A program made the translations under genes and the position numbers. Positions 45,866 through 46,386 of a DNA stretch of 64,000 nucleotides are shown here, piece after piece. A model generated the notes under the pieces. That model searched no databases. It was not told the origin of the DNA and saw only the letters and a program-made list of their open reading frames with translations. Positions within the stretch are counted from its first letter, which is position 1. Every line of letters begins with the position of its first letter. Origin of the DNA: Schmidtea polychroa (taxonomy: Eukaryota); assembly GCA_044892525.1 (NCBI GenBank), contig CM097885.1, positions 186,001 to 250,000 of the forward strand, in the 5' to 3' direction.

Positions 45866-46386
45866 TTAATTTTTATTTAAAAATCTGGTTAAAATATACA
45901 AAATAACAACACCTGTTGCAAGTTTTACATAATTTTTAAATTTTCTTTTCTGATCATCAATTTCCTTCGCATTTCTGGCGAGTTGATTGAGTACTCCCCA
46001 TCCGCCATTGGCTTCAATCCATGGTTGAAACTTTGACTTGATTATCTAGAAAATAAATATTAATAAAATATAAATTATAAAAGTATTACTTCTTGAGACC
46101 ACTGATAATAGTGCTCTGAGTCCCATAGACTTCTTTGGATTATTATTTTCATATAAGCGAACCCTACTAGTATTCGGGTCCACTTCATCTGATCGTCGCA
46201 TAGACAGTTAAAAATTCTATTAAAATAGAATTTTTTGGTTTCGAGACAATCAGAATTGATCACATCTTCATAATCAATGTGATTACCTTCTATAATCTTT
46301 TCGGTCCGATCGACCAGGAAACATAGGCTTTCCATAATATTCTTGTTGACGAGTTCTCTTAAAAGATTTTCCATAAATTGAGACAT
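45866..46386 (-). CDS. Bcl-2 family protein (158 aa; exons 46386-46090 and 46045-45866)
   Basis: BH1-like FNRIFNCLCDDQMKWTRILVGFAY. After a 44-bp intron come BH2 PWIEANGGW and a C-terminal hydrophobic anchor YVKLATGVVILYILTRF. Confidence 0.82.

What the first reader, a model, noticed from the sequence alone, without database searches (positions are those of the whole stretch)
45866..46386. Hidden spliced Bcl-2 homologue in the Polinton
Seen: the ORF track shows only exon 1. Removing a 44-bp GTAATA...TTCTAG intron (46046-46089) adds IIKSKFQPWIEANGGWGVL...YVKLATGVVILYILTRFLNKN*, giving BH1 (MKWTRI; canonical NWGRI), BH2 (canonical WIxxxGGW) and a tail anchor in the right order. The frame is intact although pPolB and integrase are disrupted. 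Inference: a viral Bcl-2 analogous to adenovirus E1B-19K; the G>T change in BH1 may alter specificity.
Basis: partly seen in the sequence, partly recalled or inferred. Interest (0 to 1): 0.85.

Follow-up and report, generated by a model that had tools for sequence, protein, structure and literature searches.

The report
Spliced Bcl-2-like gene in a Polinton
A virus-like jumping element in what looks like a flatworm genome carries a small two-exon gene related to the host's own Bcl-2 cell-death regulator, a kind of cargo already reported for this class of elements.

Summary
On the minus strand, exon 1 (46386-46090, 99 codons), a 44-nt GTAATA..TTCTAG intron (46089-46046) and exon 2 (46045-45866, 59 codons plus TAA) give a 158-aa product.

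The intron is real:
- Four sister lineages in the same genome keep GT..AG at the same codon, while intron length varies (44-54 nt).
- One contig of a probable RNA run joins 46045 directly to 46090.

The product belongs to the Bcl-2 family:
- Exon 1 residues 10-99 and exon 2 residues 1-56 align without gaps, end to end, to residues 37-126 and 127-182 of a named planarian "Bcl2-like protein" (E 4e-9 and 1e-10).
- Sister copies read through their in-frame introns pass Pfam's Bcl-2 cut-off (34.6 and 34.4 bits against 31.4).
- dN/dS between lineages is about 0.2.

The gene lies inside a roughly 18.7-kb Polinton/Maverick with about 0.9-kb terminal inverted repeats. This copy is dead, and its intact frame reflects youth, not selection.

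The fold could not be confirmed, because only exon 1 could be folded (pLDDT 61). Anti-apoptotic function is inferred.

Bcl2 and IAP homologues in adintoviruses/Polintons (2021) and a BCL2-like motif in planarian Burro elements are already in print. This is a new member of a known kind.

The parts
46090..46386 (-). Exon 1 of the Bcl-2-like gene: ATG at 46386, 99 codons. It holds the BH3-like and BH1 (MKWTRILVGF) regions.
   Evidence: Translation. Pfam Bcl-2 E 0.0078, profile 9-66/100. BLASTP to the named planarian Bcl2-like protein P0006: residues 10-99 against 37-126, no gaps, E 4e-9. The best six matches to solved-structure sequences are Bcl-2-related protein A1, E 0.033-0.051.
46046..46089 (-). 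44-nt phase-0 spliceosomal intron, GTAATA...TTCTAG.
   Evidence: Sequence. Sister lineages have the same position and GT..AG with lengths 44, 45, 46, 48, 51 and 54 nt; one further copy in the alignment adds 6 nt to the 46-nt form (about 52 nt, read from the alignment). Run X1 has a contig ending at 46045 with 10 loose letters equal to 46090-46099, and another contig starting exactly at 46090 (checked).
45866..46045 (-). Exon 2: 59 codons plus TAA (45868-45866). It holds BH2 (PWIEANGGW), a linker and a C-terminal hydrophobic tail anchor. An AATAAA overlaps the last codons (45877-45872).
   Evidence: Translation. Pfam Bcl-2 profile 86-100/100, E 0.35. BLASTP to P0006: residues 1-56 against 127-182, no gaps, E 1e-10. 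Hydropathy maximum at residues 42-56. In 149 of 150 scored genomic copies there is no stop inside and the frame is 59 codons.
46387..46450 (-). Putative promoter. A TATAAATA lies at 46422-46415 (29-36 nt upstream of the ATG) and a CCAAT at 46446-46442. The region is shared with the divergently oriented ORF 46492-46989.
   Evidence: Sequence. 57-58 of 64 positions are identical to lineage B, although synonymous sites of exon 1 are near saturation. Calling these motifs promoter elements is my reading and was not tested.
29565..30425 (.). Left terminal inverted repeat of the Polinton. Weaker similarity extends out to about 29443.
   Evidence: 29565-30425 against 47864-46945, 84% over 944 columns. 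The core 29972-30198 against 47231-47457 is 98% over 227 nt.
46945..47864 (.). Right terminal inverted repeat (extends to about 48140). The Bcl-2-like gene ends about 560 nt inside it.
30418..30966 (-). RING-finger ORF of the element. It is a possible second cell-death or ubiquitin-related cargo gene.
   Evidence: Pfam zf-C3HC4_3, E 1.5e-9, 37.9 bits against a cut-off of 27. No BIR domain was seen.
31866..35605 (-). Protein-primed type-B DNA polymerase, split over three frames in this copy.
   Evidence: ORFs. 62% amino-acid identity to an uninterrupted 1389-codon frame of a divergent lineage. ESM Atlas score 0.96 to DNA_pol_B_2/Endonuclease_7 clusters, 25 of 30 hits. No Pfam DNA_pol_B_2 hit at E up to 1.
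38152..38622 (-). Adenovirus-type cysteine protease.
   Evidence: Pfam Peptidase_C5, 26.8 bits against a cut-off of 21.3.
38564..41232 (-). Two large ORFs (38564-39847 and 40150-41232) where Polintons usually carry their capsid genes. This identity was not confirmed.
   Evidence: No Pfam or solved-structure sequence hit. They are 76% and 64% identical to ORFs of the divergent lineage. The capsid label is from recall of Polinton gene order.
41163..42332 (-). Integrase (rve core plus chromodomain). It is broken by an in-frame stop at 41583-41585 and holds a long poly-Ile microsatellite run.
   Evidence: Pfam rve E 4.5e-6 (27.3 bits, below the cut-off of 32.6) and Chromo E 7e-5. ORFs.
42919..43587 (-). 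Packaging ATPase.
   Evidence: Pfam Pox_A32, 30.6 bits against a cut-off of 22.8.
43618..44082 (+). TBP-like ORF. Together with ORF 44860-45270 it is a neighbour of the Bcl-2-like gene in two divergent Polinton lineages.
   Evidence: Pfam TBP, E 2.9e-15. 54% and 34% identical counterparts lie next to the intronless Bcl-2-like gene in the other lineage.

Best explanation
This is a genuine two-exon accessory gene of a Polinton/Maverick (adintovirus-like) endogenous virus. It encodes a 158-aa tail-anchored member of the Bcl-2 family.

Shown:
- The exon-intron structure.
- Homology to the host's Bcl2-like protein over the whole length.
- Retention of the gene and of its intron in at least four intron-bearing lineages.
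- Presence of an intronless version in a fifth, more divergent Polinton lineage.
- Purifying selection between lineages.

Inferred:
- The gene descends from, or shares a recent ancestor with, one particular host Bcl-2 paralogue.
- It is transcribed from its own TATA-type promoter and spliced.
- The protein is inserted by its C-terminal anchor into the mitochondrial outer membrane or the ER. There it most likely acts as a pro-survival Bcl-2, holding back the host's Bax/Bak-type or BH3-only proteins so that the cell stays alive while the element replicates and assembles particles.

The copy in the window sits in a dead element (polymerase and integrase broken). It is intact because it is young.

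My odds: real spliced Bcl-2-family gene of the element, about 0.9. Pro-survival action given that, about 0.6-0.65.
For: Structure:
- Searches give the two exons and the intron.
- In lineages B, C and D the intron sits at the same codon with GT..AG and lengths 44, 45, 46, 48, 51 and 54 nt. In lineage C its sequence is unrelated (a TAT microsatellite plus a T run). Exon 2 stays 59 codons (alignment).
- Indels outside multiples of three occur in the intron but not in the exons of 5 of the 6 lineage-B copies aligned. One copy, L030, has a 4-nt deletion in exon 2.
- In run X1 a contig ends at 46045 and runs on with TTCTTGAGAC, which is 46090-46099. Another contig starts exactly at 46090.
- None of the 150 scored genomic copies of exon 2 has an open frame longer than 61 codons, so no intronless DNA copy was seen among them.

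Family:
- Only Pfam Bcl-2 is hit, and collinearly.
- The best six matches to solved-structure sequences are Bcl-2-related protein A1, aligning MKWTRI to NWGRI.
- ESM Atlas first hit 0.93; the commonest family set, Bcl-2, accounts for 18 of the 30 hits.
- BLASTP of exon 1 and exon 2 to P0006 (UniRef name 'Bcl2-like protein', Schmidtea mediterranea, PF00452): E 4e-9 and 1e-10. Residue 99 of exon 1 meets residue 126 and residue 1 of exon 2 meets residue 127.
- Exon 1 against the host-type locus L042: E 3e-10. L042 scores 46 bits with Pfam.
- Sister copies L046 and L045, read through their in-frame introns with X at the stop, score 34.6 and 34.4 bits against the cut-off of 31.4, profile 6-100/100.
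- The intronless relative P0005 scores 32.7 bits and matches both exons collinearly (E 4e-6 and 6e-5).

Selection:
- dN/dS of the window copy against three lineage-B copies is 0.19-0.20 over 158 codons. Exon 1 alone gives 0.09-0.11 and exon 2 gives 0.38-0.39.
- Among 19 sister copies of lineage A there are 23 distinct variants: 13 synonymous, 9 non-synonymous, 1 stop and none in the intron. With 87 synonymous and 387 non-synonymous sites, that is a ratio of about 0.17 by my arithmetic.

Element:
- Protease, ATPase, integrase and RING hits are, the polymerase lead, the inverted repeats.
- The TBP-like ORF, the ORF 44860-45270 and a Bcl-2-like gene are neighbours in a lineage whose large ORFs are only 62-76% identical.

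Function (inference):
- The nearest relatives are host Bcl-2-like genes. Passages of PMC4993586 say that RNAi of planarian bcl2-1 led to total lysis. I do not know whether P0006 is that gene.
- Viral Bcl-2 homologues are anti-apoptotic as a rule (recalled). Adintovirus Bcl2 and IAP homologues are called 'anti-apoptotic' in PMC8502044, section 3.2.
Against: - The window's own exon products each fall below Pfam's cut-off (17.2 and 11.9 bits against 31.4).
- The fold was not confirmed. Only exon 1 could be folded (pLDDT 55 and 61).
- Foldseek against the PDB gave no match at E <= 0.001. With the better model, 30 of the 35 listed rows are Bcl-2-family entries by their titles, but the best is E 1.8, probability 0.44, TM 0.44. 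That model's alignment already held host Bcl-2 sequences.
- The Foldseek-independent search gave only generic helical repeats (Z <= 6.9), with a poxvirus Bcl-2-like protein (A49) at rank 39, rmsd 8.3.
- Profile-profile comparison with four other host-type Bcl-2 genes gave only 9.5% and 13% probability, confined to BH1 and BH2.
- The splice evidence is one 10-letter overhang in one contig of one run whose RNA nature is a guess.
- BH1 lacks the Gly of NWGR.
- Nothing here tells a pro-survival protein from a pro-death one.
- Synonymous divergence is very uneven (dS about 2 in exon 1, about 0.5 in exon 2). One lineage-B copy (L021) carries a lineage-A-like intron (42 of 44 identical). Recombination therefore blurs the dN/dS estimate.
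- The copies sampled were the best-scoring ones, not a random sample.
Confidence: 0.7

Rival explanations
1. The protein is a Bcl-2-family member that acts as a killer (Bax/Bak-like pore former or sensitiser). The element would use it late to permeabilise or lyse the cell and release particles, rather than to keep the cell alive.
For: - The multi-BH architecture with a tail anchor is shared by pro-death Bax and Bak (recalled).
- The top Foldseek row for the exon-1 model is a Bax dimer, but at E 1.8.
- The BH1 Gly, which matters for the pro-survival activity of Bcl-2 (recalled), is replaced by Thr.
Against: - The best sequence matches among solved structures are pro-survival A1/Bfl-1.
- The closest host-type gene also lacks the Gly, so its loss says nothing about direction.
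- Viral Bcl-2 homologues described so far are nearly all pro-survival (recalled). PMC8502044 calls the adintovirus ones anti-apoptotic.
- A second survival-type cargo gene (RING finger) sits on the same element.
Confidence: 0.15
2. The protein has a Bcl-2 fold but a job outside apoptosis, as in many poxvirus Bcl-2-like proteins that block innate immune signalling. Alternatively it controls autophagy, calcium or mitochondrial dynamics.
For: - The protein is very divergent from canonical host Bcl-2 genes (hhalign probability 9.5-13%).
- Exon 2 evolves faster (dN/dS 0.38-0.39).
- A poxvirus A49 row appears in the wide structural search, and an Atlas cluster mixes Bcl-2 with Poxv_Bcl-2-like families. 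Both are weak.
Against: - Unlike those poxvirus proteins, it keeps recognisable BH1 and BH2 motifs and a tail anchor.
- It aligns end to end with a cellular Bcl2-like protein.
Confidence: 0.1
3. The resemblance to Bcl-2 and the intron are chance features of an AT-rich decaying ORF. No spliced protein is made.
For: - The window's own exon hits are individually weak.
- No sequencing run on record as RNA was available.
Against: - Gapless 146-residue collinearity with a named Bcl2-like protein.
- Sister copies above Pfam's cut-off.
- Conserved intron position with variable length.
- dN/dS of about 0.2.
- The junction contig.
Confidence: 0.03

Closest known systems
Cellular planarian 'Bcl2-like protein' (P0006, UniRef name for a Schmidtea mediterranea entry) and its counterpart in this genome (locus L042)
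   Same: - Same length class and order of parts: BH3-like region, BH1, BH2, linker of about 25 residues, tail anchor.
- Gapless alignment over 146 residues.
- BH1 has a small hydroxyl residue instead of Gly: RWSRV against KWTRI.
   Different: - Only 24-29% identity.
- The host-type locus has GTGAGT directly after the GGW codons. By recall, that is the place of the intron conserved in cellular Bcl-2 genes. The Polinton gene runs on past GGW and instead has an intron 16 codons upstream.
- The host-type gene appears once, with no Polinton genes within 10 kb on either side. The Polinton gene has some 1,600-2,400 first-look candidates.
Bcl2 and IAP homologues of adintoviruses/Polintons (Starrett et al. 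2021, PMC8502044, section 3.2; passages read)
   Same: - Same class of element: pPolB, rve integrase, adenain-like protease and packaging ATPase.
- Same kind of cargo. Here too a RING-finger gene accompanies the Bcl-2-like gene.
   Different: - The main text of that paper has no occurrence of Schmidtea, planarian or flatworm, and none of spliced cargo genes.
- Its Supplementary Figs S1 and S2, where the Bcl2 homologues are shown, were not seen.
- Here the gene has a spliceosomal intron and sits in a family of very high copy number.
BCL2-like motif in Burro giant Gypsy-type LTR retroelements of planarians (Grohme et al. 2018, as reported in Arkhipova and Yushenova 2019, PMC6431247; passages read)
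   Same: - Same kind of host genome.
- This genome also has a Bcl-2-like stretch inside repeated open frames of up to about 3,090 codons. One of them scores 29.6 bits with Pfam Bcl-2.
- It is a mobile element carrying cell-death regulators.
   Different: - There it is a domain inside a polyprotein of a retroelement. Here it is a free-standing, promoter-bearing, tail-anchored gene of a DNA element.
- The two sequences differ greatly.
Adenovirus E1B-19K (Pfam PF01691)
   Same: By recall, it is a small anti-apoptotic Bcl-2 mimic of a virus lineage that shares its capsid and protease type with Polintons. One Atlas cluster at 0.85 mixes E1B_19K and Bcl-2 families (a lead only).
   Different: - No PF01691 hit at E up to 10 for either exon, nor at E up to 0.01 for sister copies.
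- This gene's demonstrable relatives are cellular Bcl-2-like genes of its host, so any likeness to E1B-19K is analogy.

Membership tests
Bcl-2 family (Pfam PF00452) | Match to the Pfam Bcl-2 profile at or above the gathering score, for the window's own product | tested here: inconclusive
   The spliced product could not be handed to the tool, so the two exon products were scanned apart. They scored 17.2 bits (profile 9-66) and 11.9 bits (profile 86-100) against a cut-off of 31.4. No other family was hit at E up to 10.
Bcl-2 family (Pfam PF00452) | Match to the Pfam Bcl-2 profile at or above the gathering score, in close sister copies | tested here: met
   L046 and L045 are 71% and 68% identical to the window copy in exon 1 and 85% and 73% in exon 2. 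Read through their in-frame introns with X at the stop, they score 34.6 and 34.4 bits over profile 6-100/100. The whole-genome scan gave 32-34 bits for dozens of such copies.
Bcl-2 family (Pfam PF00452) | Significant full-length similarity to an accepted family member | tested here: met
   P0006 (named Bcl2-like protein, PF00452): exon 1 E 4e-9 and exon 2 E 1e-10, contiguous and gapless across the junction. L042 (46 bits with Pfam): E 3e-10.
Bcl-2 family (Pfam PF00452) | BH1 (NWGR-like) and BH2 (W..GGW) motifs in that order | tested here: met
   MKWTRI aligns to NWGRI of A1 and of host genes, and PWIEANGGW aligns to W..NGGW. The BH1 Gly is Thr.
Bcl-2 family (Pfam PF00452) | Helical-bundle Bcl-2 fold | tested here: inconclusive
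   Only exon 1 (99 aa) could be folded: all-helical, pLDDT 55 and 61. With Foldseek against the PDB, 30 of the 35 listed rows are Bcl-2-family entries, but the best has E 1.8. The wide VIA search and the viral library gave nothing specific.
Bcl-2 family (Pfam PF00452) | C-terminal tail anchor (present in many but not all members) | tested here: met
   The hydropathy maximum of 1.97 falls on LATGVVILYILTRFL, flanked by Lys and Arg/Lys. It aligns without gaps to the C-terminal hydrophobic stretch of P0006. No dedicated membrane-segment predictor was available.
Bcl-2 family (Pfam PF00452) | Binds BH3 helices and regulates mitochondrial outer-membrane permeabilisation | not testable with these tools
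   This needs binding and cell-death assays.
Adenovirus E1B-19K (Pfam PF01691) | Match to the Adeno_E1B_19K profile | tested here: not met
   There was no hit at E up to 10 for either exon product, and none at E up to 0.01 for sister copies or relatives.
Polinton/Maverick (adintovirus-like) element | Protein-primed type-B DNA polymerase | tested here: inconclusive
   ESM Atlas score 0.96, with 25 of 30 hits in DNA_pol_B_2/Endonuclease_7 clusters. There was no Pfam DNA_pol_B_2 hit at E up to 1 and no solved-structure sequence hit.
Polinton/Maverick (adintovirus-like) element | Retrovirus-type (rve) integrase | tested here: met
   rve E 4.5e-6 (27.3 bits, below the cut-off of 32.6, in a frame interrupted by a microsatellite and a stop) and Chromo E 7e-5.
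Polinton/Maverick (adintovirus-like) element | Adenovirus-type protease and A32/FtsK-type packaging ATPase | tested here: met
   Peptidase_C5 scores 26.8 bits (cut-off 21.3) and Pox_A32 scores 30.6 bits (cut-off 22.8).
Polinton/Maverick (adintovirus-like) element | Terminal inverted repeats around a 15-20-kb body | tested here: met
   29565-30425 against 47864-46945 is 84% over 944 columns, with a 227-nt core at 98%. The exact ends and the target-site duplication were not determined.
Polinton/Maverick (adintovirus-like) element | Double and single jelly-roll capsid proteins | tested here: inconclusive
   The two large ORFs at 38564-39847 and 40150-41232 have no Pfam or solved-structure sequence hit. 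They were not folded.

The most novel reading that the evidence does not exclude
The roughly 2,000 mostly intact, promoter-bearing Polinton copies of this gene, together with the Bcl-2-like domains of Burro-type retroelements, may be more than passive viral cargo. When these elements are derepressed, they could jointly shift the apoptotic threshold of the animal's cells. [quoted passage not shown] A related bold reading is that the single-copy host-type 'Bcl2-like' gene closest to them is itself a domesticated Polinton gene, or that the Polinton lineage gained a new spliceosomal intron after capturing an intronless copy.
Probability: 0.12. Interest if true: 0.7.

Novelty: new member of a known kind. 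Interest (0 to 1): 0.4.

Why it matters
- It gives a clean, checkable gene model for a Polinton cargo gene that ORF finders truncate. The protein collections held only the 103-104-aa unspliced ORFs, with no domain call for the one 90%-identity cluster found.
- It shows that anti-death-type cargo (a Bcl-2-like gene, with a RING-finger gene on the same element) is kept under purifying selection across divergent Polinton lineages of one animal.
- In the same genome, giant retroelements also carry a Bcl-2-like domain. Two unrelated classes of mobile element therefore converge on one host pathway, in what is probably a planarian. In planarians, controlled cell death is important for tissue remodelling and regeneration (recalled).
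- It is a practical warning for genome annotation and for RNAi or expression studies of Bcl-2 genes in these animals. Thousands of near-identical element-borne copies exist.

Tried and rejected
1. Two-chain prediction of exon 1 plus exon 2 residues 1-36: no answer (score 0.01, mark 0.34, controls not run). This counts neither for nor against.
2. First fold of exon 1 with a 3-row alignment (pLDDT 55), then Foldseek against the PDB: no meaningful match (VHS domains, designed helices, a few Bcl-2 rows at E about 4-5).
3. Wide VIA search and the viral structure library with the second model: generic helical matches only. There was one A49 row and one BALF1 row, both weak.
4. (profile comparison of A3 with A2) was circular, because A2 contains A3. 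I do not use it.
5. No RNA holder was listed for the stretch. Runs X1-X3 are RNA only by guess. X2 shows poly-A/poly-T loose ends, some at A-rich sites that could be internal priming. I draw no conclusion on transcript ends or expression level.
6. Word-based search with exon 1 found only the unspliced 103-aa ORF. The exhaustive HMMER search found only one 104-aa relative, which proved to be lineage B of the same genome. No relatives from other organisms were found this way.
7. The search of earlier findings returned nothing.
8. Grohme et al. 2018 (PMC5797480) is not held. Its BCL2-like statement is quoted second-hand from PMC6431247.
9. Literature searches for a planarian Polinton Bcl-2 gave no such report: 'Bcl-2'+'Polinton', 'Maverick'+'Bcl-2'+'transposon', 'Maverick'+'Schmidtea', 'Polinton'+'planarian', 'adintovirus'+'Bcl2', 'adintovirus'+'apoptosis'. 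'Smed-bcl2-1' found no paper.
10. I considered and rejected the view that the intact frame in this copy shows selection (see the interpretation field).
11. I considered that the polymerase breaks might be introns. I rejected this because the pieces abut or overlap without room for one, compared with the uninterrupted frame of the other lineage.
12. The exact element ends and the target-site duplication were not resolved.
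Full report
1. WHAT IS THERE

The feature lies on the minus strand.
- An ATG at 46386 opens 99 codons that end ...DSEHYYQWSQE at 46090.
- The next 44 nt (46089-46046) read GTAATA...TTCTAG.
- From 46045 a second frame of 59 codons runs to a TAA at 45868-45866.
- A plain ORF list shows only a 103-aa ORF that reads on into the intron.
- The intron is phase 0, so the two exons can be analysed codon by codon without joining them.
- Upstream lie a TATAAATA (46422-46415) and a CCAAT (46446-46442). An AATAAA overlaps the last codons. Calling these a promoter and a poly-A signal is my reading.

2. THE INTRON IS REAL

A DNA search of the window's own 781-Mb genome found 1,627 first-look candidates. 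All 40 that were scored match the full 651 bases at 99-100% identity.

The one distant protein relative in the public collections, P0004 (64% identity), proved to be a second lineage in the same genome. That search gave 2,399 candidates; 150 were scored, and 148 of those had no stop. A Pfam scan of the genome brought up two more lineages.

In all four lineages (A is the window's; B, C and D are the others):
- the intron sits after the same codon;
- it begins GTAA and ends TAG;
- exon 2 begins IIKSKF and stays 59 codons long.

The intron itself differs in length: 44, 45, 46, 48, 51 and 54 nt, plus one copy of about 52 nt read from the alignment. In lineage C it is an unrelated TAT microsatellite followed by a T run.

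Length changes that are not multiples of three are thus tolerated in exactly these 44-54 nt and not in the flanks. One of the six lineage-B copies aligned (L030) has a 4-nt deletion in exon 2 and is broken.

Laying contigs of four public runs on 45500-46900 gave direct support. In run X1, one contig covers 45898-46045. A loose end of ten letters after 46045, TTCTTGAGAC, is identical to 46090-46099. Another contig begins exactly at 46090.

That is the predicted junction to the base. It is still one overhang in one run, and the RNA nature of that run is a guess.

Among 150 scored genomic copies of exon 2 (of 1,955 candidates), none has an open frame longer than 61 codons. No intronless DNA copy that could explain the contig was seen among them.

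3. IT IS A BCL-2 FAMILY PROTEIN

Direct tests of the window's own exon products:
- Scanned apart, they hit only Pfam Bcl-2, and in order. Exon 1 residues 32-86 match profile 9-66 (E 0.0078, 17.2 bits). Exon 2 residues 2-16 match profile 86-100 (E 0.35, 11.9 bits). Each is below the 31.4-bit cut-off.
- A profile of exon 1 against all solved-structure sequences puts six Bcl-2-related protein A1 sequences on top (E 0.033-0.051). They pair MKWTRI with NWGRI. A schistosome Bcl-2 homologue and a 'BCL-2 protein' come lower.
- The language-model atlas gives a first hit of 0.93. The commonest family set, Bcl-2, accounts for 18 of the 30 hits.

The decisive results came from relatives inside the genome.

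(a) Sister copies. L046 and L045 have introns that happen to be in frame. Read through with X at the single stop, they score 34.6 and 34.4 bits over profile 6-100, above the cut-off, despite the 15-16 extra residues.

(b) An intronless relative. A 144-aa protein (P0005) scores 32.7 bits. It matches exon 1 (E 4e-6) and exon 2 (E 6e-5) collinearly.

(c) A host-type gene. Locus L042 scores 46 bits, has no Polinton gene within 10 kb on either side, and carries GTGAGT directly after its GGW codons. By recall, that is the position of the intron conserved in cellular Bcl-2 genes. L042 matches exon 1 at E 3e-10 over 90 residues without a gap.

(d) A named protein. The public relative of L042, P0006 (184 aa), is named 'Bcl2-like protein' of Schmidtea mediterranea by UniRef, carries PF00452, and is 87% identical to L042. 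It aligns with exon 1 residues 10-99 at its residues 37-126 (E 4e-9). It aligns with exon 2 residues 1-56 at its residues 127-182 (E 1e-10). There are no gaps, the two alignments abut exactly at the splice junction, and the second runs through the linker into the hydrophobic tail.

The hydropathy maximum of exon 2 is LATGVVILYILTRFL.

4. WHAT COULD NOT BE SHOWN

The spliced protein could not be given to the folding tools, which accept only unspliced translations. Exon 1 alone folded as six helices with low confidence: pLDDT 55 with three rows and 61 with fourteen rows.

- With the better model, 30 of the 35 rows listed by Foldseek against the PDB are Bcl-2-family entries (Bax, schistosome BCL-2, sjA, Bcl-xL, A1, Bak, Mcl-1, NRZ). 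The best has E 1.8, probability 0.44 and TM 0.44, and the alignment used already held host Bcl-2 genes.
- The Foldseek-independent search and the viral library gave nothing specific.
- Profile-profile comparison with four other host-type Bcl-2 genes gave only 9.5% and 13% probability, at BH1 and BH2.

The fold criterion is therefore open. Membership rests on sequence.

5. THE ELEMENT

Inverted repeats of about 0.9 kb bracket about 18.7 kb: 29565-30425 against 47864-46945, 84% identity, with a 227-nt core at 98% and weaker similarity out to about 29443 and 48140.

| Window position | Strand | Gene or ORF | Evidence |
|---|---|---|---|
| 30418-30966 | - | RING finger | zf-C3HC4_3, E 1.5e-9 |
| 31866-35605 | - | Polymerase, in three frames | Atlas 0.96 to DNA_pol_B_2/Endonuclease_7 clusters; no Pfam or solved-structure sequence hit |
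| 38152-38622 | - | Adenovirus-type protease | Peptidase_C5, above cut-off |
| 38564-39847 and 40150-41232 | - | Two unassigned large ORFs | No Pfam or solved-structure sequence hit |
| 41163-42332 | - | rve integrase with chromodomain | rve E 4.5e-6, Chromo E 7e-5 |
| 42919-43587 | - | A32-type ATPase | Pox_A32, above cut-off |
| 43618-44082 | + | TBP-like ORF | TBP, E 2.9e-15 |

The Bcl-2-like gene ends about 560 nt inside the right repeat.

The element sits in a tandem array of a 201-codon ORF. The flank 28000-29155 equals 48845-50000 at 99.8%.

This copy is dead. The integrase has an in-frame stop and a poly-Ile microsatellite, and the polymerase is frameshifted twice relative to the uninterrupted frame of another lineage.

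The intronless P0005 gene lies in that other lineage, whose large ORFs are 62-76% identical to the window's. There it again sits beside the TBP-like ORF and the counterpart of ORF 44860-45270. The Bcl-2-like gene is therefore old cargo of this Polinton group, not a one-off capture by one copy.

6. SELECTION

Between the window copy and three lineage-B copies:

| Region | dN/dS |
|---|---|
| Exon 1 | 0.09-0.11 |
| Exon 2 | 0.38-0.39 |
| All 158 codons | 0.19-0.20 |

Among 19 lineage-A sisters, 18 are intact and one has an indel and a stop. There are 23 distinct variants: 13 synonymous, 9 non-synonymous, 1 stop and 0 in the intron. With 87 synonymous and 387 non-synonymous sites, that is a ratio near 0.17 by my arithmetic.

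Caveats:
- The copies are the best-scoring ones, not a random sample.
- dS is very uneven between the exons.
- One lineage-B copy has a lineage-A-like intron, so recombination is at work.
- The 5' flank (57-58 of 64 identical) and the intron (39-42 of 44) are better conserved than synonymous sites of exon 1. I cannot fully explain this.

The window copy itself differs from all 19 sisters at just three positions. Its intactness carries no information about selection.

7. HOW IT MOST LIKELY WORKS

Shown:
- a promoter-proximal, spliced, tail-anchored Bcl-2-family gene;
- kept under constraint in a virus-like element.

Inferred:
- The protein is inserted into mitochondrial or ER membranes and acts as a pro-survival Bcl-2 that buys time for replication and particle assembly, as viral Bcl-2 homologues generally do (recalled).
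- The RING-finger gene on the same element fits this.
- Passages of PMC4993586 report that RNAi of planarian bcl2-1 led to total lysis, so at least one host family member is pro-survival. I do not know whether P0006 is that gene.

Nothing here excludes a Bax-like killer role or a non-apoptotic role.

The Thr in place of the BH1 Gly is shared, as Ser, with the closest host-type gene and with P0005. Two other host-type genes have Val or Ala there. It is therefore not a viral change of specificity.

8. COMPARISON AND NOVELTY

It works like, and by sequence is, a Bcl-2-family member. It is not an E1B-19K family member, as no PF01691 hit was found.

Already in print:
- Bcl2 and IAP homologues in adintoviruses/Polintons (PMC8502044; passages read; Supplementary Figs S1 and S2 not seen).
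- A BCL2-like motif and BIR domains in the giant Burro retroelements of the planarian S. mediterranea (PMC6431247, quoting Grohme et al. 2018, which is not held).
- Planarian Polintons as abundant, piRNA-controlled elements that are desilenced on differentiation (PMC8532177; passages), and Maverick expansions in Dugesia (bioRxiv 10.64898/2025.12.11.693146; passages).

My six searches found no report of a Bcl-2-like gene in a planarian Polinton or of a spliced one.

New here:
- the gene model;
- the conserved intron;
- the link to one host paralogue;
- the very high copy number;
- the co-existence with Burro-type Bcl-2-like domains in the same genome.

Verdict: real, well supported, a new member of a known kind, of moderate interest.

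Noticed in passing
window 43618-44082 (+): The Polinton carries a TBP-like ORF (Pfam TBP, E 2.9e-15). A 54%-identical counterpart lies in a divergent Polinton lineage next to its Bcl-2-like gene. TBP-like genes are listed for related mid-size dsDNA viruses in a figure legend of PMC8502044.
   Followed up: partly
window 30418-30966 (-): There is a RING-finger ORF at the other end of the element (zf-C3HC4_3, E 1.5e-9). By eye the C-terminal RING looks like that of IAPs, but no BIR domain was found.
   Followed up: partly
G000, dozens of loci, e.g. L049-L053: A Bcl-2-like stretch (Pfam profile about 14-100, 28-30 bits, just under the cut-off) sits inside repeated open frames of up to about 3,090 codons. 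A cysteine-rich region follows it. This fits the published BCL2-like motif upstream of an Env-like region in Burro giant retroelements (PMC6431247).
   Followed up: partly
window 954-3760, 17819-18424, 28342-28947, 49187-60207: There are tandem arrays (period about 2.08 kb, both orientations) of a nearly identical 201-codon ORF. By eye it looks like a two-HMG-box protein; this was not tested. The Polinton is inserted into one array: 28000-29155 equals 48845-50000 at 99.8%.
   Followed up: no
window 61887-63999 (-): The start of a second, different Polinton. Its polymerase ORFs are clearly related to, but divergent from, those at 31866-34710.
   Followed up: no
window 46492-46989 (+): A 165-codon ORF is transcribed divergently from the Bcl-2-like gene. 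It has hydrophobic N- and C-terminal stretches and many N-x-S/T sites, which could mean a small membrane glycoprotein. It has only a weak Fib_alpha hit (E 0.0013). Contigs of runs X1-X3 cover it. Its 3' end overlaps the right inverted repeat.
   Followed up: no
window 41583-42332 and 46969-47363: Long (ATT)n-type microsatellites are present. One is expanded in frame inside the integrase core, giving a run of about 40 Ile. Another lies in the inverted repeat. In lineage C the same kind of repeat makes up the Bcl-2 intron.
   Followed up: no
L021 (G000:C1:242323446-242326754) against window 45866-46450: This is a mosaic copy. Exon 1 is lineage B, but the intron (42 of 44 identical) and the first part of exon 2 are lineage-A-like. 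That points to recombination or gene conversion between Polinton lineages. More generally, the 5' flank and the intron are better conserved between lineages than synonymous sites of exon 1, which I cannot explain.
   Followed up: partly
G000:C4:89.95-90.83 Mb (L031-L037): A cluster of seven near-identical canonical Bcl-2 domain exons (68 bits, NWGRI and NGGW) lies within about 0.9 Mb. This is a tandem or segmental duplication of a host Bcl-2 gene.
   Followed up: no
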